Under the pieces are notes generated by a model that was not told the origin of the DNA, did no database searches, and saw nothing but the letters and a program-made list of their open reading frames with translations. A stretch of 64,000 bases of DNA from Bacteroidetes bacterium RIFCSPLOWO2_12_FULL_35_15. Lineage in GTDB: Bacteria > Bacteroidota > Bacteroidia > 2-12-FULL-35-15. The position numbers and the translations under genes were made by a program. Every line of letters starts with the position of its first letter. Positions within the stretch are counted from its first letter, which is position 1. Where the stretch lies: positions 21,548 to 85,547 of the forward strand of contig MEPB01000048.1 in NCBI GenBank assembly GCA_001769385.1, read 5' to 3'. Shown here piece after piece: positions 22,084 to 50,168 of this stretch.

Positions 22084-22848
22084 TTATTTTTTCTTGCCGA
22101 AACCAAAACCAATACCAAACTCTACTCCGTAAGAATAAAGATAGAGTTTATGATACCAAGCATCATCACCCAGTGCACTGTCACGATGTGAAGTTAGAAA
22201 ACCAGTAAATGTTGGTTTAAGACTTAGAATCACATTCTGCTTTGTATAATAATTTAATCCTATACTACCATTGCCACTGAGATAATTGGAAAAACTAAAA
22301 GCTTCTCTTTCGTAAGTCGAAACAACTCCTATATGTTTTATCACACTTCTTGAAATATTGTAATAATTAATGCCTAAGGCGAAAGTGGCATAAAGCCTTT
22401 TTGATAATTCAAACTCTCCATTCATTAGTAATGGAATTCCAATTAAATAATAATTCATTTTATATGTACGATAGTCATAATAATTTATTTGACCATATTT
22501 ATCATACGAAATGTAATATAAAAACCTTTTTGTATAATATCCTTTGTTTTCAAGTATTAAACCAGTCTGAATGAAAAAATGTTTGGCACACTTATATGAT
22601 AATAGTGTTGAAGCGTGCCAACCTATTTTTGGAATTTGATCAGATGTTTTATAACCAACACCAGAACTGTTGATTGGCGGTTCTGCAATTTTATGACTTA
22701 TTCTATAGTTATAGTCTGGTGAAAATAAAAAATTTAAAGCCCATTTTGATTCCTTGGTCACTTGCATATTTGTCGAATCTTGCGCCAACAATGAATGCCA
22801 AATAAAAATACAATAAACTAAAATTAAGAATTTTTTCATCATCGCCAT
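22084..22848 (-). CDS. Outer-membrane beta-barrel (porin-family-like) protein
   Basis: Signal peptide and alternating aromatic beta-strand pattern with a C-terminal F/G-rich strand. The start codon overlaps the upstream ORF's stop (ATGA). Confidence 0.5.
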   Translation of the reverse strand: MAMMKKFLILVYCIFIWHSLLAQDSTNMQVTKESKWALNFLFSPDYNYRISHKIAEPPINSSGVGYKTSDQIPKIGWHASTLLSYKCAKHFFIQTGLILENKGYYTKRFLYYISYDKYGQINYYDYRTYKMNYYLIGIPLLMNGEFELSKRLYATFALGINYYNISRSVIKHIGVVSTYEREAFSFSNYLSGNGSIGLNYYTKQNVILSLKPTFTGFLTSHRDSALGDDAWYHKLYLYSYGVEFGIGFGFGKKK

Positions 22849-24056
22849 TAATTTAATATGAGTTTGCCAATGTGGGTAATGCCTTTACAATTAACTACTT
22901 TGATTATATATATTCCCTTTGGATGATCTGTAAGATCAATTGAAATATTTTGATTTTCAGAAGCAATAACCTGTTTTTTCCAAATACAATTTCCTAAAGT
23001 ACCATATACATAAATTCCAGAATCTAATTTATCGCTGAATTGCAAAGTAAATATTCCTGTGGTTGGATTAGGATAAATTTTAAACACCCCATCTTCCTTT
23101 TCTTCAATATTAATAGCATTTAACAGTGTTACTTTACGGTTATCGGAGCTGTCGCAATTGAGAACCACAATTTGTTCGGTAAGGGTATCTGTAATTCCAT
23201 TATTATCATTTATTATTAATGTTGTCATGTAGGTACCGGGGGTATTGAAAAATACTTTTGGATGTGCAAGTTGGGATGTTGTGCCATTTCCAAAATCCCA
23301 ATGATAACTATACAGCGTACCTAAAGTATCATCGCCAAATAATCCATCAAAACTTAGTGTATCATTGGGGCAATCCAACGTATCTGTATCTGTTTTTGTT
23401 TCAGATAATTCTTTTGCCCCATTGAGATAAATTTTATATGCGTAATCATCTGCATAGCTAAACATATCGTGAACATCTATCTTTAATTTTCCCGACAAGG
23501 TTGTCATGTAAGTATTAGAATGATAATTTGAAACTGCCCCGTACGAGCTAAGCTGACGCGTTTTGCTTTTTTGTGCGGCAGGGCTTAGGTTGTTTTTAAT
23601 TTCTGTTAAGCTTTGCTTACAAGATGTTTCAAATCGTTCATCAAGTTTTATTGGTCCGTTTTCATAAGCACTACTCATTCTCCATTCATTTGGTTGATTT
23701 ACAAAACCTGCTTCAACAGGATTAGAATGAATGTAATCGACTTTTTGTTGGATCATTTTATTGCTATATAAAAAGAAAGGATGGTTATCATGTTTCCAAA
23801 ATTGCATGCCTTGTTTTTGTGGACTATGCTTTCCATAAAATTCGAATTGATAAAGCATCCATTCTTTTCTGCTCTCTTGAGGATTTTCAGTAATTGCTTT
23901 CAATAATTTTTTTGCTGTAAAAGATTTCAAATCTCTTAAACTATTCGAAATTTCACCGTTTTCAGAATACGAAATAAAATGAACATGGCTTGGCATGATG
24001 CAATAACAATATATTTTCAGATTTTTTATTTTTCTGGCAGTACTGAATACTTTCAA
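22848..24056 (-). CDS. Chimeric ORF: IS200-like/RAYT HUH tyrosine-transposase domain read through into PKD domain + T9SS type-A CTD
   Basis: N-terminal YCIMPSHVHFI (HuH) ... YIHSNPVEAGFVNQPNEWRMSS is RAYT-like. Downstream are YHWDFGNGTTS (PKD) and KIYPNPTTGIFTLQF...GIYIIKVV (CTD). Confidence 0.55.
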   Translation of the reverse strand: MKVFSTARKIKNLKIYCYCIMPSHVHFISYSENGEISNSLRDLKSFTAKKLLKAITENPQESRKEWMLYQFEFYGKHSPQKQGMQFWKHDNHPFFLYSNKMIQQKVDYIHSNPVEAGFVNQPNEWRMSSAYENGPIKLDERFETSCKQSLTEIKNNLSPAAQKSKTRQLSSYGAVSNYHSNTYMTTLSGKLKIDVHDMFSYADDYAYKIYLNGAKELSETKTDTDTLDCPNDTLSFDGLFGDDTLGTLYSYHWDFGNGTTSQLAHPKVFFNTPGTYMTTLIINDNNGITDTLTEQIVVLNCDSSDNRKVTLLNAINIEEKEDGVFKIYPNPTTGIFTLQFSDKLDSGIYVYGTLGNCIWKKQVIASENQNISIDLTDHPKGIYIIKVVNCKGITHIGKLILN

Positions 24057-24171
24057 TTAAAATTTCCTGATATTCTCTTCTTGTAAAAACATCAATCCAT
24101 CCAGCAACACTAAAACTTACAAAATATAAACCCGTGCTATCTGTTTTGTATTTCTCTGACATAGAAAACAA
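23600..24171 (-). mobile_element. IS200/IS605-family Y1 (REP-associated tyrosine transposase-like) gene, frameshifted
   Basis: The N-terminal 69-aa ORF 23962-24171 (GLYFVSFSVAGWIDVFTRREY...) and the rest in another frame overlap at 23962-24056. T-homopolymer runs lie at ~24010-24030. Confidence 0.6.
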
Positions 24172-24321
24172 ATTTAGTAAAAATGAAATTTAAACTTTTA
24201 CTTCAACCATTTTCTTTCGTAAGCAGCGCTTACAGACAACAAAAAACACGAAGTAGCTATACACGAGCTTGCACTCGAACTTCGCGCTTACTGTTTTTCT
24301 ATACCTTAATGGCCTATGGGG

Positions 24322-24915
24322 TTAATAATTCGAACTGCCTAAAGTAATGGAGTTAAAAAATGTATTTTTATTTGCTGTTAAATTTGTTAAATCATCTTGA
24401 AAGCCTGCAATCATAAATGTAAGAAGTGATTTTGGTTTATAATAAATGCGTGTATATGATAATACGATTCTACCAGTATAAAGATCATTATATGTTAAAT
24501 TCATCTCCAATCCTTTATATCCGCTTGATAAGGCAAGTGTGTTCATTTCTGTTTGTGACGAATTTGTACTTCCAATAAAACTATTTACAATTGCGCTTAA
24601 AGTATCGCCCTGTGTAAGTTGTAAGGCATTAGTAAATGTAGTGTTTGAAGAATCCAGATTCGCACCGGTAAATTTTAGTATGTGAAAAAATAAAGAGGAG
24701 TCTTTCACCATTGAATAATGTTTAATATTTAGTGTATCCATAACTGTTGGATTATCTGGCAAGGAAAAGTTAAATCGTACTGTATCATTAATCACAGAGT
24801 CTTCCGAAAGCCTAATGACAGGCGTTTTGTCAACTACTATAGGCCATGGAGGAGTTTGACAAAACAGATTAGTAATTTGTATTGAACAAATAATTGCAAG
24901 TATGTAATTTTTCAT
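24322..24915 (-). CDS. Hypothetical secreted protein
   Basis: Signal peptide, S/T/N-rich, 197 aa. Confidence 0.4.
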   Translation of the reverse strand: MKNYILAIICSIQITNLFCQTPPWPIVVDKTPVIRLSEDSVINDTVRFNFSLPDNPTVMDTLNIKHYSMVKDSSLFFHILKFTGANLDSSNTTFTNALQLTQGDTLSAIVNSFIGSTNSSQTEMNTLALSSGYKGLEMNLTYNDLYTGRIVLSYTRIYYKPKSLLTFMIAGFQDDLTNLTANKNTFFNSITLGSSNY

Positions 24916-25011: not shown

Positions 25012-27342
25012 TTATTGTTTAATTAATTTTTTTATTTCCATTTCTTCCAATTCATTAATGCTGCGTACATAATAAATACCTGCTGAATAAGCAGAAATAT
25101 CAATACTAAATACCGTATTAGATGAAGCATCGCTTGACCAAATAGCTTTGCCCATCATATCAAAAACTTTTAAATCTTTTATCCCAATGGGTTGGTTGTT
25201 ATGAGTTACAACAATTTGAAAAGTGCCGTTGTTTGGATTTGGTATAATGCTGATTCCAGAAACCGTTTGTGTTTTTGAAACAGTACCTTGTGTATTAACT
25301 AATGCAGACGAATTCGTATTTTGTACAATAGGGTTATTATCGCTATTACTTGCAGATTCAATATTATCGGTTTCTTTTGGATAGTTTACAAAAGTTGTTT
25401 GTCCTGTATAGGCTACTAAATTTTCTGTTGGTGATTGATTATTTGAGTCTGTTGAAGCTATTGGTTTCCTGTATTCTCCATCCGTTGCACAATGAAATCG
25501 TTGAACTGTGGCAGCAAATTCTGAACCTGCCTGAGCTTGGAAACCAGGTAATAATGCGATTTCTTCCCCTGCATGATAGGTTACATCAGCATTATTATTA
25601 ACAGTATTGCTTGCTGTGATAGTATTAAAGGCTTCAACAGTTGTTGGATTACCTGAGTTACCAAAAGTTATTCCACCAACAACTGAAGGGTAAGGGATTG
25701 TAATTACCCTGTCCATATAATTAACTGTTGCAACGGTGTTGCCTTGAATAATATGATACAAATTATAATACAGCATATAGTCCAAACCATTGTATTCTCC
25801 ATCAGGTGAACCAATATTATCGCCATTCATTTTATGATACCCATATGGTGGTCTTGGAATTCTACATTCTTCGTCATAAACTCGGCTGTCGGCAGACCAT
25901 TCAAATGTCGCACAATTACCACCTGTATAATGATAACAATAAGGTCCATTACAAGGTGCACTATTGATCAAATCTGTATATTTACTATCAGGTATTGGGT
26001 TTATTCCACCATGCAATACCTGACGAAGTAATGGCATATGCCAGTTCTGAAGTGCAAGACCTGGTATGCCATAATCTAAAGTTGCAGCATATTGCCTTCC
26101 AGCAAGGCTAATAGCTGTTATATTATGCGGTGGTTGAGGTAATAAGGAAGTCAATAAAAGTGCTAATTCAGCTGCATGATTTGGATTTGCGTAATAAATT
26201 GGATGTGAAATGATCTGTTCCATTATTGGAACAGGATTAGGATATGTTAAGGATACATTATCATACCAACAATTACCAATTGCTGCCAACTGTTCAACCT
26301 TATAATCTTCATGAACTGGCCCCAATCCATAACCTTGAAAAAGAACAATATTACTTAATACTTTTGGTTCGTACTGATAAGTATTACAAGAATGAACAAA
26401 AGGAAAGCATTCAGCATAAGTAGGCTGAGCAGGGGCAGGCAAAAAGTCAGGATCTGATAGTACATTATTAATATAGCAAGTTGCTTCGCTTGCCCCATAA
26501 AGAAGGTACCAAGGATTTGGACCATTAACTACAAGATTTCCATCAGGTTGTTTTACTTTCCAATCATTATTTTGTAAATAAGTCATAATTCTATTGGTGA
26601 TATTTAGAGCTTCTTGTCGGATATTAGTATTGCCATCATAATTATTCAATGATTGCGCAACCCATTGCCCGGAAGAATTTTTTATTTTATATTCAATTGG
26701 TGAATAAATTGGTAGGCAGCGTGCCATTAATGCAAAGCCACTAAACAAATGCCATATCTGGTCATGACTCATCCATGTACCGGGTTGAAATCCTTGAGCA
26801 ACAGCATCATAATAATCCGAGTAAACGGTATTAATTGATGTGGATGAGGCGATACCATTTTTCAATTTGGGATGATCATCTAAAAACGTACTATATACAT
26901 CATCCCTCATAAAAAAGCCATTTAAATTAGCGGATGATTGTGTTAAAGGAGGTGTTGCATTAATGTTATAAAAGAATGTTTCAGCTTCTTCATCCAAGCG
27001 GTTAAAAGCTTTTAAAGCGTAATATAATTCTTGAACAGTTGTATCTGTTAGTTGATTATTATCACGTAATAATTTATATTCAGTAGCCAAAACGGCAATA
27101 TAGTTGCCAAGGCAAATTATTTGGTCACCCCATTTTGCTCCTGAAATTGTATTAGTAATGTTATACCCTCTTTCGCCCATTGGAGATGAACATCCCTGGC
27201 AATCACCTTTTGCCAAAAAATCGTTTACCAAACGGTAATGATACCACCAATATTTTTTCAAATTTAGTTGGTCGGTTTGGGCATTTACATGAATCGAATG
27301 GATAAATGTAAGTACAAATAAAATTTTATATAATCTTTTCAT
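25012..27342 (-). CDS. Large secreted protein with T9SS C-terminal sorting domain
   Basis: Signal peptide. The C-terminus VSGISIIPNPNNGTFQIVV...GIYYVRS is Por-secretion-tail-like. 776 aa. Confidence 0.6.
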   Translation of the reverse strand: MKRLYKILFVLTFIHSIHVNAQTDQLNLKKYWWYHYRLVNDFLAKGDCQGCSSPMGERGYNITNTISGAKWGDQIICLGNYIAVLATEYKLLRDNNQLTDTTVQELYYALKAFNRLDEEAETFFYNINATPPLTQSSANLNGFFMRDDVYSTFLDDHPKLKNGIASSTSINTVYSDYYDAVAQGFQPGTWMSHDQIWHLFSGFALMARCLPIYSPIEYKIKNSSGQWVAQSLNNYDGNTNIRQEALNITNRIMTYLQNNDWKVKQPDGNLVVNGPNPWYLLYGASEATCYINNVLSDPDFLPAPAQPTYAECFPFVHSCNTYQYEPKVLSNIVLFQGYGLGPVHEDYKVEQLAAIGNCWYDNVSLTYPNPVPIMEQIISHPIYYANPNHAAELALLLTSLLPQPPHNITAISLAGRQYAATLDYGIPGLALQNWHMPLLRQVLHGGINPIPDSKYTDLINSAPCNGPYCYHYTGGNCATFEWSADSRVYDEECRIPRPPYGYHKMNGDNIGSPDGEYNGLDYMLYYNLYHIIQGNTVATVNYMDRVITIPYPSVVGGITFGNSGNPTTVEAFNTITASNTVNNNADVTYHAGEEIALLPGFQAQAGSEFAATVQRFHCATDGEYRKPIASTDSNNQSPTENLVAYTGQTTFVNYPKETDNIESASNSDNNPIVQNTNSSALVNTQGTVSKTQTVSGISIIPNPNNGTFQIVVTHNNQPIGIKDLKVFDMMGKAIWSSDASSNTVFSIDISAYSAGIYYVRSINELEEMEIKKLIKQ

Positions 27343-27353
27343 TATTGAGTCCT

Positions 27354-27839
27354 TTAGCGTTTTAATTTCAAATAATATTCTTTTCCATTATAATTGCTTT
27401 TCAACCAAAAATCTTTCATTGTCAATCTTTGAATTGCCCAAATACATGGTTGATGTAATGTTATATTATTGGGAGGCATTAAACTATTATTGGGAGGGAA
27501 GGGAGTACTTGTACTAATTTCAATGTCCTTTTTATTATTAGTAAATGCCCAATGTCCACTAAATCCTTCATTGGGGTTTACAATCAAATTATTACATCTA
27601 AATTCATAGGTTGGATCGTTATCACCATGTGCCTGATGAAACCTGTATTTCCCATAATAAGGATCTTTAAAATAAGCAGAGGAATCGTTACCGTTTATTG
27701 AAAAATAATCAACAATCCAGTCGCCATTCACTATCCTGTGTTCTTTTGTAAAGATTGATAATAATGGTCCATCTGGATATTTTTTGCAACTTGTAATTAC
27801 TATGACTACAAGTATTGTATACAGTAATTTTTTTTTCAT
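27354..27839 (-). CDS. Hypothetical lipoprotein
   Basis: Lipobox ITSCKK. Its start overlaps the upstream gene's stop. Confidence 0.45.
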   Translation of the reverse strand: MKKKLLYTILVVIVITSCKKYPDGPLLSIFTKEHRIVNGDWIVDYFSINGNDSSAYFKDPYYGKYRFHQAHGDNDPTYEFRCNNLIVNPNEGFSGHWAFTNNKKDIEISTSTPFPPNNSLMPPNNITLHQPCIWAIQRLTMKDFWLKSNYNGKEYYLKLKR

Positions 27840-29439
27840 TTTTTTTGTACTTTTTCGAGTTTTTCAATACGTTTATTTTGTTCTACAACATACAGGGTTA
27901 GTTCCTCAATTTTTTTCAATAAAAGTTTATTCATTTCTGCAAGGTCAACACCATTTTCAATTACTTCTTTTTCAGACGGTATGCCAGATAAGTGTTTATT
28001 AGTTTTGTAATAATTTTCTACTTCGTTTAATTTTGGAAGGATATAATTTTCATTGAATACATAATCTGCCCAGTTTGAAACAGTAGCAAATGCTGATTGC
28101 ATTACTACTTTGCCGCTTACTGTTAAAAGTGCATCCGCATAATGCAGGCTATTTGCCGTTAACTGTTGGGTACCAATTACCACCTTACCATGTAGAATGG
28201 AATTACCGTTTACATCTAATTTTGCGTTTGGGGTATCTGTGCCAATACCAACTAATCCAGCTTGTCCATTAAACCAGTACACATAATTACATTCCCTCCA
28301 TTATCACCAGCACTCATATAAATATTTCCTCCACTTGGTCCAGTACACATTAATACATCTTTACCGCAATAATAATTTACTAATAAACGTGGTGCTATAC
28401 CATCGCTATTCTCTCCAGCGATATCTATTATTCCATTTGCGCCATCCCAACCCATTGACATTAGATTGGAAAACCCATCGGAAGTATATCCTCCCGATGC
28501 TAATAAACCTTCAAAATAATTAAGAGGTACTGTGGGTGCAAAACAAAAACTTGGTGGAGGTATAGGGTCGACAGGGCCAAAACTTAAGACCTCAGAATGT
28601 CCGGCTGAAGCTGGTGTGAAGCTTATTTTTTTGTTCCCTGCAAAAGTAAGACTGCCGTTGGCGGTAAAATTCCCACTTACTTTAACATCTCCATTCACAT
28701 CCAATTTAGCCTGTGGAGCTTTTGTTCCAATACCAAAATTTCCGGTGGTGGTTTGTATAATGTCATTGTTGTTTACTTGTAAACCTGTAAAGGTTGAAAT
28801 TTCTTGCCAGACACCACTACTCGAAAGTACTTGGGTAAAACTATTGTTAAATTGAATGTGTTCAATTTTTCCATTTTGATCATGTTTGATAATCCCTTCA
28901 CCTTGCCCATTTAAATTATGAAGAATAAGATCACCGTCAATCCGCAAATTTCCGTTCACGTGTAATTTTTCCATTGGTGAAACGGTTCCAATCCCAACCT
29001 TCCCTGGAGCGGTTTGTATAATGTCAGTATTGTTTAATTGTAAACCGATGAGGGTTGAAATTTCACTCCAAACACCACTACTGCTTAATACCTGTGAAAA
29101 ATTTTGGTTAAAAGGGATACGTTCAATTTTTCCTAAATTATCATACCTGATAATTCCATTTCCTGTCCCGCTTAAATTCTTTAAGAACAAATCGGCATTC
29201 GGATCAATTTCCAATGCTTTTAAATTATTAGTCCTGAAAATTAAGGAGGTGGCATTGGTAGTGCCAATAAAATCTGTACTGGTAACACTATTTCCATTGG
29301 TGTTCCATTTTTGCTGATTCTGAGGCAAAGGAGTTGCCGGGCCCTGGGCAAGTACATTTACCACAGATAAAATAATTAAGTTAATTAAGAGTAGCGCTTT
29401 GTTGAAAAAAGCGTGCGTTGGCAAAAGCGTGCGTTTCAT
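27836..29439 (-). pseudogene. Tail-fibre-like repeat protein (GxGT...AKLDVNG repeats, C-terminal coiled-coil domain), split by a frameshift near 28250-28285
   Basis: ORFs 28252-29439 and 27836-28282 overlap. Both carry the same repeat: GIGTKAPQAKLDVNGD vs GIGTDTPNAKLDVNGN. Confidence 0.55.
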
Positions 29440-42455: not shown

Positions 42456-45400
42456 ATGAAAAAAATAATACTAATTAACTGTCTTATATTCTTAAGTATT
42501 ATAAAAGCATTTGCACAACCCGCTAATGACGGTTGTGCCGGAGCTCAATCTGTTACACCTGATGGAACCTGTGTTGCAGGGACTACTGTAGATGCTACTG
42601 ATGGCTGGACGGGAAGTGTCGGTTGTCAATCCGGAGCTAGTCATCCGGAGGTTTGGTACTCTTTTGTTTCCACTGGAACGCAAGCAAGTTTCACAATTAC
42701 AAATGGTACAATGACTGGAAATATTGAGTTGGTTTTAGTTGAATCCTCTGGTCCTTGTGCCGGGCTGGCTTTAACAGGATCCTCTTGCGGAGCTTCTCCT
42801 TTAAGTGCTTCGTTTAATGGTTTGGTGATCGGTACAACCTATTATTATACCATTTCTTCTTCTACTTCTTCGCTTGGAACTTTTACAACTTGTGTAACCA
42901 CATCCAATCCTCCTCCGGTCTCCGGACAAGATTGTGGAAATGCTGCAATATTATGTAATAACAATCCTTTTTCACAGGGTACCTCAAGTGCTGGTGCAGG
43001 AGCTGTTTTTGGAAATGCTTCTAATGAAAATTTATCTGCATTGGGTTGTTTGGCATCTGATGAGCGTCAATCAAAATGGTATAAATTTACCATAGGTTGT
43101 ACAGGTACCATAGAGTTTTTAGTGGATCCTAATGATAATGCAAATGACTATGATTGGGCTGTTTATGATATTACTACTTCCGGTTGTGCATTAACTCCAG
43201 GTGGCGCAGCTGCAGGAGGAGCAACCCAGGTAGCTTGTAATTACAGTGGTTGTCCTGGAAATACAGGGATTCTGAATCCTTTAACGGATCCATGTACGAT
43301 AACTAATTATACAACATGCGAAGCGGCCGGAGGGCCCGGTAATTGCAGTGGTGCTGATATTGGTCAGTTTAGTATTGCACCTCCGACTCTTACTGCTGGC
43401 CATACGTATGCATTAATTATTGATAACTTTTCTCTTTCAAATGCAGGATTCGCATTCTCTTGGTTAAGTGGTGGAACAGCAACTATTGGACCTGATGCAA
43501 ATTATACGTATGCAAATCCATCCTGTGGCGTGTTTAATTTTACTAAATCGTGTGCTACAATTAATTCAACTTTTCTTTGGACCTTTGGTGATGGAGGAAC
43601 TTCAACTTTACAAAATCCTTCACATACTTATGTAACCGGTGGAACTTACATAATTTCTTTACAAGTTACGGACGCTCTTGGTTGTATTAATACAAGCAGC
43701 CAAACAGTTGCTTTTTTAACACCGCTAGCAACAGCTACTCCGGCATCACAAAGTATTTGTTCGGGTACATCTACTTCTATTGCATTAAGTAGTACTGTAA
43801 TCGGAACAACTTATGCCTGGACTGTTAGCGAAACTGGTGTTTCAGGAGCCAGTGCCGGAAGCGGTTCTTCTATTGCCCAGACATTGACTTTAACAGGAGC
43901 TGTTGCCGGAACTGCAACATATACGATTACTCCTACAGCTGCCGGTTGTGTTGGTGCAACAATCACGGTTACAATTACTGTCAACCCTAGTGCTACCATC
44001 GTACTTTCTTCTGCTGTTGGTACAAATGCGCAAACAGTTTGTGCATTAGCAGCAATTGCAAATATTACTTATACTGTTGGCGGAGCTGGAACTGGTGCAG
44101 GTGTTACCGGTTTGCCTGCTGGCGTTACCGGAGCATTTGCAGGAACGACATTCACTATCAGCGGTACACCAACAGCAACCGGAACTTTTAACTATGTTGT
44201 TACAACTACCGGAACCTGTACTCAGGCAACAGCAACCGGAACTATTATCGTGAATCCCAATGCGACAATTACACTAACTTCAGCTGCAGCTACAACAGCT
44301 CAGACGCTTTGTGTAAGTACAGCAATTACAAATATTACATACACAGTTGGTGGAGGTGGAACAGGTGCAGGGGTAACAGGTTTACCGGCTGGCGTAACAG
44401 GTTCTTTTGCAGGCGGTGTTTTCACAATCAGCGGCACTCCTACTGCAACAGGCACGTTTAATTACACGGTAACAACAACAGGAAGTTGCACGCAGGCAAC
44501 AGCACTCGGAACAATAACGGTAAACCCGAATGCCAGCATAACTTTAACATCCGCAGTAGGTTCTAATGCACAAACTATTTGCTTAACATCACCTGTCACA
44601 ACTATTACCTATACAGTTGGTGGTGGTGGAACCGGAGCTGGTGTAACAGGTTTGCCGGCAGGTGTATCAGGTTCTTTTGCAGGAAGTACATTTACGATCA
44701 GCGGAACTCCAACTGCAACAGGTACATTTAACTATGTAGTAACAACTACCGGAACCTGTACACAGGTTACCGCATTAGGGACTATCATTGTTAATCCGAA
44801 TGCGACAATTACCTTAACGTCTGCAATAGCTACTACAGCACAGACTCTTTGTGTAAGTACAGCAATTACAAATATTACATATACCATTGGTGGAGGTGGA
44901 ACAGGTGCAGGGGTAACAGGTTTGCCGGCCGGGGTAACAGGTTCTTATGCAGGTGGAATTTTCACAATCAGCGGCACTCCTACCGCAACAGGCACTTTTA
45001 ATTATACAGTAACAACAACGGGAACCTGTACCCAGGCAACAGCGCTGGGAACAATAACGGTAACCCCGAATGCAACCATAACTTTAACATCCGCAGTAGG
45101 TACCAATGCACAAACTATTTGCTTAACATCACCTGTCACAACGATTACCTATACGGTTGGTGGTGGTGGAACCGGTGCAGGTGTGACAGGTTTACCTGCA
45201 GGTGTAACGGGTTCTTTTGCCGGAAGTACATTCACGATCAGCGGAACACCAACAGCAACAGGTACATTTAACTATGTAGTTACAACTACCGGAACCTGTA
45301 CGCAGGTTACCGCATTAGGGACTATCATTGTTAATCCGAATGCGACAATTACCTTAACGTCTGCAATAGCTACTACAGCGCAGACTCTTTGTGTAAGTAC

Positions 45401-48400
45401 AGCAATTACAACTATTACTTACTCCATTGGTGGAAGCGGAACAGGGGCAGGTGTAACAGGTTTACCCGCGGGCGTAACAGGTTCTTTTGCCGGAGGAGTA
45501 TTTACAATAAGTGGAACTCCAACAGCATCAGGCACATTTAATTACACCGTAACAACAACGGGTACTTGCACACAAGCAACTGCTACAGGCAGCATAACAG
45601 TTAATCCATTACCTGCCATAACTTCAATCCCTTTTACAAATGAAACTACTTGTGGTGCTAGTGATGGAACAATAACAATTAATGCAACAGGTACCGGACT
45701 GACATATTCTATTAATGGTGGAACTTCATTTGTTGGAACTAATCTTTTTACAGGATTAGCAGCAGGAAGTTACACGATTGTTGTTGAAAATGCAGCAGGT
45801 TGTACAGTCAATGGTGGTGTAATATCTATCAGCAGCGCTGGTGCTCCTGCAACGCCTGCCGCTAATGCAGCCCCAAATCCTCTGTGTGAAGGTTCAGCTT
45901 TAACATTAACAGTTGTCGCCCCGGTTGGAGGCGTAACTTATAACTGGTCAGGTCCGGGAGGATATTCAGCAACAGGATCATCTGTTTCTATTCCAGGTGT
46001 TACAACCGCTATGACCGGTGTTTATACTGTAACCGGGAGTATTGGCTCTTGTGTGAGTCCGGGAGGATCAGTAACAGTAACTGTGGATCCAAATGCTGCC
46101 ATTGCTTTAACTTCAGCAGTAGGAACAGATATACAAACATGGTGTCTAACAAATACCATCACTACCATTAGTTATACAATTACCGATGGCGGCACGGGAG
46201 CTGGCGTAACAGGATTGCCAATAGGAGTAACAGGCTCTTATGCAGGAGGCATATTTACGATCAGTGGCACACCAACAGAAACCGGAACATTTAATTATAC
46301 AGTGACTACAACCGGAACTTGTACGCAAGCAGTGGCAAGCGGAACAATAACTATCAATCCCAATGCAATTATTACGTTGACATCTGCAGCCGGAACAGAT
46401 TCACAAATTGAATGTATCAACACTGCAATTACCGCCATAACCTATTCCGTAACCGGTGGTGGAGCAGGTGCCGGAGTTACAGGTTTACCGACAGGTGTAA
46501 CAGGTTCTTTTGCAGGAAGCATATTCACTATCAGCGGAATACCAACAGCTACCGGTACGTTTAATTATACAGTCACCACAACAGGAACCTGTACACAAAC
46601 AACAGCAACTGGAAGTATCATTGTAAACCCGGATGCAGCTATCACTTTAACATCAGCTGTTGGAACAGATGCACAAACATGGTGTCTTACTGATGCAGTA
46701 ACTACTATAACCTATTCTATAACAGGTGGTGGAACTGGTGCTGGTATAACTGGTTTGCCGGCAGGGGTGACTGGTTCTTTTTCAGGAGGGGTTTTTACAA
46801 TTAGCGGAACACCAACAGTAACCGGTGTTTTTAATTATCTGGTAACAACAACCGGATCCTGCACTCAAGCAAGTGCAACCGGAAGCATCACCATAAATTC
46901 AAATGCCATAATTACATTAACATCAGTAGCGGGAAGTGATATACAAACGTCCTGTATCAATGTCGCGATCACTCCAATAACATACTCTGTTTCAGGTGGT
47001 GGTGCCGGTGCCGGAGTAACAGGTTTACCAGCAGGTGTGGCAGGTTCTTTTTCAGGAGGGATATTCACTATCAGCGGAACTCCAACAGCAACAGGCATAT
47101 TTAACTACACGGTAACTACTACCGGTACTTGCACTCAGACAACAGCAACCGGTACCATAAATGTAAATCCGGATGCCATTATTGCTTTAACCTCAGCGGT
47201 TGGAACAGAAGCACAAACAGTATGTATTAATATACCAATCACTACTATTACATATTCAGTAACAGGAGGCGGAACAGGAGCCGGTGTAACAGGTTTGCCT
47301 ATAGGCATAACCGGATCATTTGCTGGGGGTGTGTTTACTATTTTTGGGACACCAACAGCATCAGGCACATTTAATTATAGCGTAACAACAACCGGTACGT
47401 GTAGCCAAGCAACTGCACTTGGAACAATAATAGTGGACAGTGATGCAGCTATTGCTTTAACATCTGTTGCAGGAACTGACGCACAAACAGCATGTATAAA
47501 TACAGCCATCACTTCAATCACATATTCTATAACAGGGAGTGGAACAAATGCCGGAGTAACCGGATTACCTGCAGGAGTAACAGGTTCATTGGCTGCAGGG
47601 GTCTTTACTATAAATGGAACACCTACTGCAACCGGTACATTTAATTATACCATAACAACAACAGGAACCTGTATCCAAACTACAGTATTGGGAAGTATGG
47701 TCATTAATCCGGATGCTGTTATTGCTTTAACATCGGCAGCCGGAACCAATTCACAAACGCTATGTATCAATACAGCGATTTCTGTAATTACATATTCCAT
47801 AACAGACGGTGGAACAGGAGCTGGTGTAACTGGTTTGCCGGCAGGTGTAACAGGATCATTTGCTGCAGGTGTGTTTACAATTTCCGGAACACCATCCACA
47901 TCAGGAACATTTAATTATACGGTAACAACAACAGGTACTTGTCTCCAAGCAACAGCAACCGGAAGCATTATTATTAATGCATTACCGATCATCGATACTA
48001 CTAACATTGTAATTACTCCGGCTACCTGTGGACTATCGGATGGATCTATAACCGGCATCACCGCTTCAGGTGCAACAGTATTAGCCTACACATGGAATGG
48101 AGCAGCAAGCGCTACAACTGATCTGATTAATGTTCCGGTTGGTGCATACACATTGGTGGCGATGGATATAAATAATTGCTCATCTTCAATGGGGCCGGTT
48201 CAAATAATAAACCCCGGAGCCCCTGCTGCTCCAGCCGCTCCGAGTCCTGCGGCTTATTGCCAAGGCGCTGCAATTGCCGATTTAACGGCAACGGGCACAG
48301 GAGGAACATTAACATGGTATGCAGATGCAGGCTTAATAGCTCAGGTAGGTACAGGTAGTCCTTTTACAACAGGCGTTACAAGTACCAGCACTTTTTATGT

Positions 48401-50168
48401 TACAGAAACGGTAAGTGGCTGCCAGAGTTCAGCAACAGTGGTAACTATTACGGTTAATCCTCCGCCATCCGCTCCAACAGCTCCAAGCCCGGCATCTTAT
48501 TGTCAGGGTGATACTATTGCTGATTTGACGGCAACAGGTACAGGTGGAACATTCACCTGGTATTCAGATGCCGGTTTAATAACTCAAGTAGGTACGGGTA
48601 GCCCTTTTGCATCAGGAGCTACAAGTACCGGTACTTTTTATGTAACAGAAACGGTAAGTGGTTGTCAGAGTGCGGCAACAACGGTAACTATTACAGTTAA
48701 TCCTCCTCCATCAGCACCAACTGCTCCAAGTCCTTCTGCTTATTGCCAAGGTACTGCCATTGCTGATTTAACAGCCTCCGGAACAGGGGGAACATTTACA
48801 TGGTATTCGAATCCAGGCTTAACAACTCAGGTAGGAACAGGTAGTCCTTTTGCATCCGGAGCAACAAATACAACTACTTTTTATGTAACAGAAACTTTAG
48901 GTGGATGTCAGGGTCCTGCAACAGCAGTAACTGTTACGTTTACTCCTGCCCCATTGGCTCCAACAGCTCCAAGCCCTGCAGCGTATTGCCAGGGTGCAGC
49001 TATTGCAGATTTAACAGCAACAGGTACAGGAGGCACATTCACCTGGTATTCAGATTCCGGTCTAACCACACAAGTGGGAACAGGAAGCCCTTTTGCCTCC
49101 GGAGCCACAAGTACCGGCACTTTTTATGTAACAGAAACAATAACCGGGTGTCAGAGCTTAGCAACAGCAGTAACCATTACCGTTAATTCGCCTCCATCAT
49201 CACCAACTGCTCCAAGTCCTGCAGCGTATTGTCAGGGTGATGCTATTGCGAATTTAACAGCGACAGGAACAGGCGGAACATTCACATGGTATTCAAATCC
49301 CGGCTTGACCACTCAAGTAGGGACAGGAAGTTCTTTTGCATCCGGAGCCACCAGTACCAGCATTTTTTATGTTACACAAACCATATCAGGATGTCCGAGT
49401 TCAGCAACTGCAGTGACTATTACAATTAATAATATACCAACTACTCCAACCGCAGGAAGCAACAGCCCAATATGCGAGGGTTCTGCATTAAATTTAACTT
49501 CTGATACAGTAACAGGAGCAACCTATAGCTGGACAGGTCCAAACGGATTCAATTCTCCTGCTGAGGATCCGGTTGTTAGTACTAGCGCTACTGTGGCGAT
49601 GTCTGGAACATATTCAGTTACTGTAACAGTAGCAGGTTGTACCAGTCTGGCAGGAACAACTTCCGTAATTGTGAATCCGCTACCTATTGCCAGTGCAGGA
49701 GTTGATGCAATGATCCTATCCGGTAGTTCCATAACATTAACGGCCAGCGGTGGCGGGTCGTATTTATGGAGTACAGGTGATACTGACACAACTATTACAG
49801 TTTCACCTACTGTTACTACAGATTATTGCGTAACGGTGATGGATGTAAATTCCTGTTCAGATAGTGATTGTGTTCGGGTAATTGTTGAAATACCTTGCGG
49901 AACATTATTTGTACCGCTTGCATTTTCACCAAATGGTGATAATGAAAATGATGTGTTGTCTGTTTATGGAGATTGTATTACGTATCTTGAATTTGTAATT
50001 TTTGATCGTTGGGGAGAAAAAGTATTTGAAACAAGCGACCAAACAATAAGTTGGGACGGTACCTACAAAGGAAAAAAATTGGATACTGCTGTTTTTGTTT
50101 ATTATTTGAAGGCAACAGTAAAAGGGGAATCAATAAACAAACACGGTAATATTACATTAACGAAATAA
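42456..50168 (+). CDS. Giant SprB-like cell-surface repeat adhesin with gliding-motility-associated (T9SS type-B) C-terminal domain
   Basis: 2570 aa with a signal peptide. SprB repeats (TCGASDGTITINATG; TCGLSDGSITGITASG). About 20 tandem ~90-aa T/G-rich Ig-like repeats and 5 x ~82-aa repeats. The C-terminus FSPNGDNENDVLSVYG...FDRWGEKVF is a type-B CTD. It is followed by sprF/porP. Confidence 0.8.
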   Translation: MKKIILINCLIFLSIIKAFAQPANDGCAGAQSVTPDGTCVAGTTVDATDGWTGSVGCQSGASHPEVWYSFVSTGTQASFTITNGTMTGNIELVLVESSGPCAGLALTGSSCGASPLSASFNGLVIGTTYYYTISSSTSSLGTFTTCVTTSNPPPVSGQDCGNAAILCNNNPFSQGTSSAGAGAVFGNASNENLSALGCLASDERQSKWYKFTIGCTGTIEFLVDPNDNANDYDWAVYDITTSGCALTPGGAAAGGATQVACNYSGCPGNTGILNPLTDPCTITNYTTCEAAGGPGNCSGADIGQFSIAPPTLTAGHTYALIIDNFSLSNAGFAFSWLSGGTATIGPDANYTYANPSCGVFNFTKSCATINSTFLWTFGDGGTSTLQNPSHTYVTGGTYIISLQVTDALGCINTSSQTVAFLTPLATATPASQSICSGTSTSIALSSTVIGTTYAWTVSETGVSGASAGSGSSIAQTLTLTGAVAGTATYTITPTAAGCVGATITVTITVNPSATIVLSSAVGTNAQTVCALAAIANITYTVGGAGTGAGVTGLPAGVTGAFAGTTFTISGTPTATGTFNYVVTTTGTCTQATATGTIIVNPNATITLTSAAATTAQTLCVSTAITNITYTVGGGGTGAGVTGLPAGVTGSFAGGVFTISGTPTATGTFNYTVTTTGSCTQATALGTITVNPNASITLTSAVGSNAQTICLTSPVTTITYTVGGGGTGAGVTGLPAGVSGSFAGSTFTISGTPTATGTFNYVVTTTGTCTQVTALGTIIVNPNATITLTSAIATTAQTLCVSTAITNITYTIGGGGTGAGVTGLPAGVTGSYAGGIFTISGTPTATGTFNYTVTTTGTCTQATALGTITVTPNATITLTSAVGTNAQTICLTSPVTTITYTVGGGGTGAGVTGLPAGVTGSFAGSTFTISGTPTATGTFNYVVTTTGTCTQVTALGTIIVNPNATITLTSAIATTAQTLCVSTAITTITYSIGGSGTGAGVTGLPAGVTGSFAGGVFTISGTPTASGTFNYTVTTTGTCTQATATGSITVNPLPAITSIPFTNETTCGASDGTITINATGTGLTYSINGGTSFVGTNLFTGLAAGSYTIVVENAAGCTVNGGVISISSAGAPATPAANAAPNPLCEGSALTLTVVAPVGGVTYNWSGPGGYSATGSSVSIPGVTTAMTGVYTVTGSIGSCVSPGGSVTVTVDPNAAIALTSAVGTDIQTWCLTNTITTISYTITDGGTGAGVTGLPIGVTGSYAGGIFTISGTPTETGTFNYTVTTTGTCTQAVASGTITINPNAIITLTSAAGTDSQIECINTAITAITYSVTGGGAGAGVTGLPTGVTGSFAGSIFTISGIPTATGTFNYTVTTTGTCTQTTATGSIIVNPDAAITLTSAVGTDAQTWCLTDAVTTITYSITGGGTGAGITGLPAGVTGSFSGGVFTISGTPTVTGVFNYLVTTTGSCTQASATGSITINSNAIITLTSVAGSDIQTSCINVAITPITYSVSGGGAGAGVTGLPAGVAGSFSGGIFTISGTPTATGIFNYTVTTTGTCTQTTATGTINVNPDAIIALTSAVGTEAQTVCINIPITTITYSVTGGGTGAGVTGLPIGITGSFAGGVFTIFGTPTASGTFNYSVTTTGTCSQATALGTIIVDSDAAIALTSVAGTDAQTACINTAITSITYSITGSGTNAGVTGLPAGVTGSLAAGVFTINGTPTATGTFNYTITTTGTCIQTTVLGSMVINPDAVIALTSAAGTNSQTLCINTAISVITYSITDGGTGAGVTGLPAGVTGSFAAGVFTISGTPSTSGTFNYTVTTTGTCLQATATGSIIINALPIIDTTNIVITPATCGLSDGSITGITASGATVLAYTWNGAASATTDLINVPVGAYTLVAMDINNCSSSMGPVQIINPGAPAAPAAPSPAAYCQGAAIADLTATGTGGTLTWYADAGLIAQVGTGSPFTTGVTSTSTFYVTETVSGCQSSATVVTITVNPPPSAPTAPSPASYCQGDTIADLTATGTGGTFTWYSDAGLITQVGTGSPFASGATSTGTFYVTETVSGCQSAATTVTITVNPPPSAPTAPSPSAYCQGTAIADLTASGTGGTFTWYSNPGLTTQVGTGSPFASGATNTTTFYVTETLGGCQGPATAVTVTFTPAPLAPTAPSPAAYCQGAAIADLTATGTGGTFTWYSDSGLTTQVGTGSPFASGATSTGTFYVTETITGCQSLATAVTITVNSPPSSPTAPSPAAYCQGDAIANLTATGTGGTFTWYSNPGLTTQVGTGSSFASGATSTSIFYVTQTISGCPSSATAVTITINNIPTTPTAGSNSPICEGSALNLTSDTVTGATYSWTGPNGFNSPAEDPVVSTSATVAMSGTYSVTVTVAGCTSLAGTTSVIVNPLPIASAGVDAMILSGSSITLTASGGGSYLWSTGDTDTTITVSPTVTTDYCVTVMDVNSCSDSDCVRVIVEIPCGTLFVPLAFSPNGDNENDVLSVYGDCITYLEFVIFDRWGEKVFETSDQTISWDGTYKGKKLDTAVFVYYLKATVKGESINKHGNITLTK

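What the first reader, a model, noticed from the sequence alone, without database searches (positions are those of the whole stretch)
22848..24321. Frameshifted IS200-like/RAYT HUH transposase read through into a PKD + T9SS-CTD tail, with palindromes upstream
The 69-aa ORF (GLYFVSFSVAGWIDVFTRREY...) and the N-terminus of the 402-aa ORF (YCIMPSHVHFI...YIHSNPVEAGFVNQPNEWRMSS) together form a ~180-aa Y1 HUH transposase of the REP-associated (RAYT) type. The two parts are in different frames and overlap at 23962-24056, next to T-homopolymer runs. After the transposase domain the ORF continues without a stop into a PKD domain and a type-A T9SS sorting domain, yet the chimera has no signal peptide. 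The likeliest reading is a RAYT insertion into, or fusion with, the 3' portion of a T9SS cargo gene. The upstream ORF 24322-24915 has a signal peptide and may be the severed 5' part. The 150 bp upstream contains gtaagcagcgcttac and gcgcttac palindromes that could be the cognate REP sequences.
Basis: partly seen in the sequence, partly recalled or inferred. Interest (0 to 1): 0.7.

Follow-up and report, generated by a model that had tools for sequence, protein, structure and literature searches.

The report
Dead RAYT transposase fused to gene remnant
A decaying REP-associated transposase gene, still flanked by its hairpin repeats, has replaced the front of a secreted-protein gene, and two small mutations make it read into the leftover tail, so the odd "fusion protein" is an accident and not a new kind of protein.

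Summary
On the minus strand, the 69-aa ORF plus the start of the 402-aa ORF form one 177-aa REP-associated tyrosine transposase (RAYT). It is split by one extra A in an A-run at 24022-24027. Removing that A restores the junction found in intact homologues (84-87% identical) and lifts the NCBIfam RAYT score to 97 bits (cut-off 80). Homologues stop after ...LDER[IVLF]; here that codon is GAA, so translation runs through the downstream REP hairpin into a PKD + T9SS sorting-domain tail.

The tail is the 3' remnant of a larger cargo gene. In relatives, 94% and 81% nucleotide homology starts abruptly at 23540, exactly where the REP ends (GTACGGGG). The relatives' 490 or more upstream residues are absent from the window.

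It is a complete member of a free-standing 175-197-aa family with its native stop.

The upstream palindromes are real. The same inner palindrome and outer REP hairpin flank the gene on both sides in 21 related loci, with compensatory stem changes.

Verdict: a pseudogenised REPtron abutting a truncated cargo gene. It is ordinary genome decay with no evidence of function.

The parts
24322..24915 (-). Left neighbour: an intact small secreted protein (197 aa, signal peptide, no Pfam family). It is NOT part of the disrupted cargo gene.
   Evidence: 62 homologues of 175-197 aa, mostly aligned end to end. P0164 (68% id) has the same C-terminus LGSSNY*. Homology with the P0164 locus (L117) stops exactly at the stop codon at 24322.
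24292..24321 (-). Left edge of the inserted block: CCCCATAGGCCATTAAGGTATAGAAAAACA, possibly a degenerate REP foot (CCCC-GTAG-GCGCTAAG in relatives).
   Evidence: Read directly from the sequence. Resemblance to the CCCCGTAGGCGCTAAGC ends of relatives is weak; this is inference.
24247..24291 (-).
   Evidence: Hairpin found. Same architecture as the outer REPs of 21 related RAYT loci.
24219..24233 (-). Upstream inner palindrome GTAAGC-GCT-GCTTAC.
   Evidence: Conserved on both sides of the RAYT gene in relatives.
23962..24162 (-). RAYT 5' fragment (MSEKYKTDSTGLYFVSFSV...; 66 aa from the ATG, ending at an out-of-frame stop).
   Evidence: called as a 66-aa gene, OFY85692.1. Aligns to residues 1-46 of intact homologues.
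24022..24027 (-). Frameshift site: an A6 run where intact relatives have AAAAAT/AAGAAT/AAAAAC (K-N). One extra A.
23631..24026 (-). RAYT 3' fragment in the frame of the 402-aa ORF (NLKIYCYCIMPSHVHF ... VDYIHSNPVEAG ... PIKLDERF). HUH motif and catalytic Tyr are present.
   Evidence: HUH and Tyr align to E. coli TnpA-REP 4ER8. The repaired protein scores 97 bits against NF047646.
23628..23630 (-). Lost stop codon: GAA where all intact relatives have TAA/TGA/TAG after ...DER[IVLF].
   Evidence: for example L016 ...CGA GTT TAA ACA... against window ...CGA TTT GAA ACA....
23606..23620 (-). Downstream inner palindrome GTAAGC-AAA-GCTTAA (one mismatch), translated as part of the 'linker'.
   Evidence: (inverted repeat I1).
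23537..23589 (-). Downstream outer REP hairpin C-CTAAGC-[29-nt loop]-GCTTAG-CTCGTAC-GGGG, translated as part of the 'linker'. Right end of the REPtron.
   Evidence: The loop is homologous to the REP loop of the closest RAYT locus, L014. It ends at the cargo breakpoint.
22848..23540 (-). 3' remnant of a T9SS cargo gene (230 codons + stop): PKD domain ~23169-23390, type-A T9SS C-terminal sorting domain ~22857-23078.
   Evidence: Pfam/NCBIfam hits. 94% nt identity to L012 and 81% to L010, starting sharply at 23540/23541. tblastn shows residues 1-299 of the relative's protein are absent from the window.

Best explanation
The locus is a decaying 'REPtron': a RAYT (TnpA-REP, HUH/Y1) gene flanked on each side by an inner GTAAGC-N3-GCTTAC palindrome and an outer REP hairpin in inverted orientation. 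It occupies 23537-24321. It sits directly after the stop codon of an intact small gene (ORF197), and its right REP end (GTAC-GGGG) is joined to codon ~300+ of a T9SS cargo gene. That cargo gene's 5' portion of at least 1.5 kb (signal peptide and an uncharacterised large N-terminal domain) has been lost. The RAYT carries two inactivating lesions. One is a +1 A insertion in an A-run, which separates the first beta-strand region from the HUH and Tyr motifs. The other is loss of its stop codon (probably TAA to GAA). Because the 31 codons across the downstream palindrome and REP happen to be open and in frame with the cargo remnant, a 402-codon chimeric ORF results. It has no signal peptide, so the T9SS sorting domain cannot act. 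The chimera is therefore a by-product of decay, not a functional protein.

Shown: the frameshift, the stop loss, the REP architecture and its conservation, the exact breakpoints, the intactness of ORF197, and the absence of the cargo 5' part.

Inferred: the order of events and the mechanism of the loss. The most likely mechanism is a REPtron lying in the intergenic space after ORF197, followed by an adjacent deletion from the REP end into the cargo gene. The junction shares GGGG with the relative's cargo sequence.
For: - The repaired protein is 84-87% identical over 177 aa to more than 100 free-standing 175-182-aa transposases, none of which carries PKD or T9SS domains.
- It passes the NCBIfam REP_Tyr_transpos cut-off only after repair (97 against 80 bits).
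- The HUH motif and Tyr align with E. coli TnpA-REP 4ER8.
- Relatives have a stop right after DER[IVLF] and lack the extra A.
- 21 related loci share the flanking inner palindrome plus outer REP. The stems covary (CTAGGC/CTAAGC/CTAAGT/CTAATC/CTGATT/CGAAGG/CGAAGC, each with a perfect complement), and extra REP copies cluster round the gene.
- Cargo homology begins abruptly at 23540, at the REP end.
- Downstream synteny (OMP beta-barrel gene, 144-aa gene) is conserved in L010, L012 and L013.
- ORF197 is intact.
- The fusion protein's 90% cluster holds only itself and the RAYT-less P0001.
- The identical sequence occurs in at least five assemblies.
Against: - No read-level confirmation of the A6 run. 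The assemblies may all derive from one aquifer population (Rifle MAG RIFCSPLOWO2_12_FULL_35_15).
- No relative was found with ORF197 and the intact cargo gene on one contig, so the ancestral arrangement is pieced together from two short contigs (L117, L012) that may come from different organisms.
- The tail shows no stops or frameshifts and no excess of non-synonymous changes (9 syn: 4 nonsyn on the window branch). So the truncation is recent, or the test lacks power.
- The two outer REPs flanking the gene have different stems (CGAAGT against CTAAGC), which a simple single-element history does not explain.
Confidence: 0.8

Rival explanations
1. Simple insertion: a RAYT element inserted into one cargo gene whose 5' half is ORF 24322-24915 and whose 3' half is the PKD-CTD tail.
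For: ORF197 has a signal peptide. Joining it to the tail at ...SNY|HS... would be in frame. A 15/16-nt imperfect direct repeat (GGCAGTTCGAATTAT / GGCAGTTTCAAATTAT) flanks the block (about 0.3% of random pairs reach this score).
Against: ORF197 homologues are free-standing 175-197-aa proteins with the same C-terminus and stop. Cargo homologues have a different, long N-terminal region immediately upstream of GVVSNY. No hit to the joined construct spans the junction. Both repeat copies are native to their own genes, so they are not a target duplication.
Confidence: 0.02
2. The frameshift is a sequencing or assembly error, or a programmed recoding site. The organism would then make a full-length RAYT-REP-PKD-CTD fusion protein with some function, such as a tethered or exported HUH nuclease.
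For: The frameshift lies in a homopolymer. The HUH and Tyr motifs are intact. The tail has no disabling mutations.
Against: - The same A6 is seen in at least five assemblies made by different assemblers and from different samples.
- A6 is too short for efficient transcriptional slippage, and a +1 shift at AAA-AAA-T is not a known efficient recoding signal (established knowledge, not tested here).
- All listed homologues are unfused and unshifted.
- There is no signal peptide, so a T9SS sorting domain cannot function (established T9SS biology).
- The linker is a translated REP hairpin.
Confidence: 0.06
3. The junctions are chimeric joins made by assemblers at repeated REP sequences, so the RAYT is not really adjacent to the cargo remnant.
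For: REPs are repeats. Several short contigs (L004, L005, L009) end at the upstream REP, and L008 switches to a different RAYT allele inside the gene.
Against: Both junctions are reproduced identically in L001, L002, L003, L006 and L007, including a 317-kb scaffold. No other copy of either REP or palindrome exists in the 64-kb window. The contig ends near 24287 coincide with a SNP at 24282 (L006), which is enough to break unitigs.
Confidence: 0.04
4. The block arose by recombination between two different REPtrons or REPs (one CGAAGT-type, one CTAAGC-type), which deleted everything between them. This is an alternative to a deletion from a single resident element.
For: The two outer REPs have different stems, although relatives usually have matching inverted partners. 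A second RAYT allele exists in the population (L008).
Against: E. coli REPtrons also mix REP subtypes (PMC6006769). No second REP or RAYT copy lies within 64 kb. The event cannot be reconstructed without relatives.
Confidence: 0.15

Closest known systems
REP-associated tyrosine transposases (RAYT / TnpA-REP) and their REPtrons. The closest described group is the Bacteroidetes-dominated subclass 2.6 of Quentin et al. 2018 (= Bertels Group 5) (PMC6006769, PMC5581495).
   Same: A single-domain HUH/Y1 protein of ~177 aa (subclass 2.6 median 179 aa) from the phylum Bacteroidota. The Y motif YIHSNP is close to YIH[QN]NP. The gene is flanked by inverted hairpin repeats with a GT[AG]N foot, and further copies lie nearby in relatives. 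It passes NCBIfam NF047646 after repair.
   Different: This copy is a pseudogene (a +1 frameshift and a lost stop). Its HuH motif is SHVH, not NH[LIV]H, and its W motif is WK, not WQ, so subclass assignment is not established. No dispersed REP copies were seen in the 64 kb available.
E. coli TnpA-REP bound to a REP (PDB 4ER8; PMC3479197)
   Same: Sequence alignment covers the HUH motif (PEHMH / PSHVH) and the catalytic Tyr region (VDYIYINPV / VDYIHSNPV). REPs with a GTAG-type foot flank the gene.
   Different: The similarity is only distant (E = 6e-5 over two short stretches). The Bacteroidota protein has extra insertions, and its REPs carry an additional inner 15-nt palindrome.
IS200/IS605 TnpA (Y1_Tnp, PF01797)
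   Same: The same HUH/Y1 fold family (Pfam hit 9e-8 after repair). Subterminal hairpins serve as recognition elements.
   Different: It scores far below the IS200 NCBIfam cut-off (21 against 55 bits). The Y motif is the RAYT type (Y..NP), not Y...Q. It is not a multi-copy IS.
T9SS cargo proteins with PKD + type-A C-terminal sorting domain (TIGR04183 / PF18962)
   Same: The tail has a bona fide PKD_4 domain and a Por_Secre_tail domain. It is 94% identical in nucleotide sequence to the 3' end of such a gene in a relative.
   Different: It lacks the signal peptide and the whole N-terminal functional domain, so it is a remnant and not a cargo.

Membership tests
RAYT / TnpA-REP (NCBIfam NF047646 REP_Tyr_transpos) | Whole-protein score above the curated equivalog cut-off (80 bits). 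| tested here: met
   The repaired 177-aa sequence scores 97.0 bits. As encoded, the fragments score only 68 and 17 bits, so the gene as it stands fails and only the reconstruction passes.
RAYT / TnpA-REP | HUH motif and a single catalytic Tyr in a Y..NP context. | tested here: met
   PSHVHF and VDYIHSNPV align with the PEHMHC and VDYIYINPV regions of 4ER8. That these regions are the HUH motif and the catalytic-Tyr motif is from the literature (PMC6006769) and my own knowledge.
RAYT / TnpA-REP | Gene flanked by REP hairpins in inverted orientation (REPtron). | tested here: met
   Window: REP 24247-24291 and REP 23537-23589, plus inner palindromes. The same architecture occurs in 21 relatives with compensatory stem changes.
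RAYT / TnpA-REP | Cognate REPs/REPINs dispersed in many copies in the host genome. | tested here: inconclusive
   There are no further copies in the 64-kb window. Relatives show 2-7 copies clustered round the gene. The whole genome was not available.
RAYT / TnpA-REP | Intact ORF encoding an active nuclease. | tested here: not met
   A +1 frameshift at 24022-24027 and loss of the stop at 23628-23630. Activity cannot be tested here.
TnpA-Y1 subclass 2.6 (Quentin 2018) / RAYT Group 5 (Bertels 2017) | Motifs NH[LIV]H, WQ and YIH[QN]NP; ~179 aa; Bacteroidetes. | tested here: inconclusive
   Length and phylum fit, and YIHSNP is close. But SHVH and WK differ from the published consensus (against PMC6006769). 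No phylogeny was made.
IS200/IS605 transposase (NF033573) | Score above the cut-off of 55 bits. | tested here: not met
   21.3 bits.
T9SS type-A cargo protein | C-terminal sorting domain (TIGR04183 / PF18962). | tested here: met
   38.7 bits against a cut-off of 23, and 44.4 bits against 27.
T9SS type-A cargo protein | N-terminal Sec signal peptide for export to the periplasm before T9SS transport. | tested here: not met
   The ORF begins inside the cytoplasmic transposase (MSEKYKTD... or MPSHVHF...). There is no hydrophobic leader, by direct reading. No signal-peptide predictor was available.

The most novel reading that the evidence does not exclude
The locus records a REPtron-driven rearrangement in an uncultivated Bacteroidota. 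In this reading the RAYT-REP block, or RAYT cleavage at its REP end (GTAC|GGGG), directly caused the loss of at least 1.5 kb of a neighbouring T9SS cargo gene, joining at a GGGG shared with the target. That would be a natural example of a supposedly domesticated, immobile RAYT system remodelling a gene. The mismatch between the two flanking REP types and the second RAYT allele in the population (L008) would then reflect ongoing REPtron turnover.
Probability: 0.2. Interest if true: 0.4.

Novelty: new member of a known kind. Interest (0 to 1): 0.2.

Why it matters
The practical value is mostly in annotation. GenBank lists the pieces as two hypothetical proteins (OFY85691.1, OFY85692.1). Domain-architecture surveys would count a spurious 'Y1 transposase + PKD + T9SS' fusion. 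The locus also gives a well-delimited example of the REPtron layout of the Bacteroidota RAYT lineage: an inner GTAAGC-N3-GCTTAC palindrome plus an outer REP with a covarying stem and a TAC-GGGG foot. It shows that such systems decay and can sit at deletion breakpoints. It opens no new biological question.

Tried and rejected
- Joined ORF197 to the tail and searched for an intact homologue. No hit spans the junction, and ORF197 proved to be a complete family of its own.
- Scanned JGI metagenome contigs with the tail to find long orthologous loci. Only distant PKD relatives came back, none useful.
- Looked for the missing cargo N-terminus, and for the gene that follows ORF197 in L117, elsewhere in the window. 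Both are absent.
- Tried to name the lost N-terminal domain. There was no Pfam hit and no convincing PDB sequence hit (only one short, weak match). Its 'ELMNE/ELWNE' motif recalls clan GH-A glycosidases, but that is from memory only and unverified.
- Tried to show that the L117 downstream gene is the cargo's N-terminus. The last homology search gave no protein covering both.
- Compared lineage-specific synonymous and non-synonymous counts for relaxed selection in the tail. There were too few changes to say.
- Considered the 15/16-nt flanking direct repeat as a target-site duplication. Rejected, because each copy is native to its own gene.
- Ran Rfam and promoter/terminator scans of the region. 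Nothing informative.
- Folding energies of the flanks alone are not significant (z about -1.5). The case for the hairpins rests on comparative covariation, not on energy.
Full report
**1. What is there**

All features are on the minus strand. The window holds a 197-aa ORF (24322-24915), a 69-aa ORF (23962-24171) and a 402-aa ORF (22848-24056).

- The 402-aa ORF hits Y1_Tnp (PF01797) and NCBIfam REP_Tyr_transpos at residues 3-127.
- It hits PKD_4 at residues 223-296 and the T9SS type-A sorting domain at residues 327-401.
- The 69-aa ORF hits the N-terminal part of the same RAYT model.

The source is the aquifer MAG 'Bacteroidetes bacterium RIFCSPLOWO2_12_FULL_35_15', where the pieces are annotated as hypothetical proteins OFY85691-3.

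**2. The transposase and its two lesions**

The frameshift:
- The two frames overlap at an A6 run at 24022-24027.
- Deleting one A gives MSEKYK...CQKNKNLKIYCYCIMPSHVHF....
- This repaired protein is 84-87% identical over 177 aa to more than 100 free-standing proteins of 175-182 aa from Bacteroidota metagenomes and MAGs. Some of them are annotated as 'REP element-mobilizing transposase RayT'.
- Their DNA at the same position reads AAAAAT, AAGAAT or AAAAAC (Lys-Asn), without the extra A.

Family assignment:
It fails the IS200 model (21 against 55 bits).
- Its HUH motif (SHVH) and Tyr motif (VDYIHSNP) align with those of E. coli TnpA-REP, PDB 4ER8.

The lost stop:
- All intact relatives end ...LDER[IVLF] followed at once by a stop.
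- The window has GAA at 23628-23630. Compare L016 'CGA GTT TAA ACA' with window 'CGA TTT GAA ACA'.

The gene therefore carries two independent lesions: a +1 frameshift between the N-terminal strand and the HUH motif, and a lost stop codon. The identical sequence occurs in at least five assemblies from several samples and assemblers. The frameshift is therefore unlikely to be a one-off error, although I could not inspect reads.

**3. The palindromes**

In 21 related loci the RAYT gene is bracketed on both sides, in inverted orientation, by two elements:
- an inner 15-nt palindrome, GTAAGC-N3-GCTTAC;
- an outer hairpin of the form caC-[6-nt stem]-loop-[stem]-CGCCTAC-GGGG.

The stems differ between lineages by fully compensatory changes: CTAGGC, CTAAGC, CTAAGT, CTAATC, CTGATT, CGAAGG and CGAAGC, each with its exact complement. 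Extra copies cluster near the gene. This is the REPtron layout described for TnpA-REP genes, with a GT[AG]N foot (PMC6006769).

The window has the same parts:
- upstream REP at 24247-24291 (CGAAGT stem);
- inner palindrome at 24219-24233;
- downstream inner palindrome at 23606-23620;
- downstream REP at 23537-23589 (CTAAGC stem), ending GTAC-GGGG.

The loop of the downstream REP is homologous to that of the closest RAYT locus, L014. The downstream set was missed because it lies inside the ORF: the 31-codon 'linker' (ETSCKQSL...RQLSSY) is simply translated palindrome plus REP. No other copies occur in the 64 kb.

**4. The tail**

- The PKD-CTD part is 94% (L012) and 81% (L010) identical in nucleotide sequence to the 3' end of a cargo gene in related metagenome contigs.
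- The downstream neighbours are the same: a 254-aa OMP beta-barrel gene and, in L010, the 144-aa gene as well.
- Homology starts abruptly at 23540/23541, exactly at the end of the REP. The four bases GGGG are shared by the REP consensus and by L012's coding sequence, so the junction is ambiguous by 4 nt.
- In the relatives, the sequence upstream of 'G(V/A)VSNY' is a long uncharacterised domain. At least 299 aa are visible in L012, and they align from residue 199 of the 598-aa P0229. It has no Pfam or PDB sequence match.
- None of this domain is present anywhere in the window.

The tail is therefore a 230-codon 3' remnant, and at least ~1.5 kb of the gene is gone.

**5. ORF197 is not the missing half**

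- A full HMMER scan found 62 homologues, nearly all 175-197 aa and aligned end to end.
- The closest, P0164 (68% identical), ends with the same ...FFNSITLGSSNY*.
- In the P0164 locus (L117), homology with the window stops exactly at the stop codon. An unrelated gene with its own signal peptide follows 18 nt later.
- An imperfect 15/16-nt direct repeat flanks the block (about 0.3% of random pairs reach this score). Both copies are native to their respective genes, so it is not a target duplication.

**6. Most likely history and mechanism**

A REPtron occupies 23537-24321, directly after an intact gene, and its right REP end is fused to the interior of a cargo gene. The simplest account has three steps:
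- a resident or inserted REPtron in the intergenic space;
- an adjacent deletion from the REP end into the cargo gene, either by microhomology at GGGG or by RAYT cleavage at the REP foot;
- decay of the RAYT by frameshift and stop loss.

The order of these events is inferred, not shown. A variant in which two REPtrons of different REP type recombined is not excluded. It would account for the mismatched REP stems and for the second RAYT allele seen at the end of contig L008.

The chimeric ORF lacks a signal peptide, so its T9SS sorting domain cannot work. No homologue shows such a fusion. The tail has no disabling mutation, and the substitution counts are too few to detect relaxed selection. 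This suggests a recent event.

**7. Comparison with known systems and verdict**

This is a pseudogenised member of the known RAYT/TnpA-REP family. By length, phylum and Y motif it is closest to the Bacteroidetes subclass 2.6 / Group 5, though its HuH and W motifs differ from the published consensus and I made no tree. It works, or worked, like a REPtron. As it stands it is dead.

The striking 'transposase + PKD + T9SS' architecture is an accident of a lost stop codon and an open frame across a REP. Interest is low. Its value is in correcting the annotation and as a clean example of Bacteroidota REPtron anatomy at a deletion breakpoint.

Noticed in passing
window 24322-24915 (-); relatives P0164-P0225: ORF197 belongs to an uncharacterised family of small secreted proteins (175-197 aa) with no Pfam family. 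It has invariant DT, DS, DTL and C-terminal FFNSI motifs. Here and in L117 it sits directly downstream of a large T9SS cargo gene.
   Followed up: partly
window 25012-27342 (-): A 776-aa T9SS cargo protein carries an NCBIfam '3-coathanger stack' domain (GCX_COOH, 1e-17) and a type-A sorting domain. Its orthologue in L117 is only ~67% identical in nucleotide sequence, although a stretch further upstream in L117 (415-1021, matching window 27646-28252) is 87% identical.
   Followed up: no
L008:1872-1951 (same locus in sample SAMN03842441): A 98%-identical strain contig shares the upstream REP region but switches, inside the first 30 codons of the RAYT, to a different allele (…SNGLYFVSFSVVGWIDIFSRQKYRDI). 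This is either a second RAYT copy or allele in the population, or a graph chimera.
   Followed up: partly
L012:1-900: The close relative's cargo gene is itself split by a frame change (frame 0 to frame 2 near ...GIDFEGNN|FNNSTDSPQKWG) in a Logan contig. This is either an assembly error or independent decay of the same gene.
   Followed up: no
window 22848-23360 against L010/L012: Conservation is mosaic. The PKD-CTD part is nearly identical among the window, L012 and even L010 (81% overall), while the 60 codons just upstream and the neighbouring OMP gene are much more diverged in L010. This may reflect recombination or strong constraint on the PKD-CTD module.
   Followed up: no
window 24325-24339 and 23523-23538 (-): An imperfect 15/16-nt direct repeat (GGCAGTTCGAATTAT / GGCAGTTTCAAATTAT) lies at nearly the same offset from the two ends of the REPtron, in the same codon phase (..SNY). 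About 0.3% of random pairs reach this score. Both copies are native to their genes, and the repeat is unexplained beyond coincidence or microhomology.
   Followed up: yes
L026 and L027 (one MAG, DATHOD01); L024 and L031 (one MAG, JAHEYA01): Single MAGs carry two RAYT copies. In DATHOD01 the copies are diverged (81% and 77% identical to the query), and each has its own REP stem (CTAAGT against CTAATC), which fits RAYT-REP co-evolution. In JAHEYA01 the two copies have near-identical flanks.
   Followed up: partly
window 42456-50168 (+): A very large ORF (2570 aa). Not examined.
   Followed up: no
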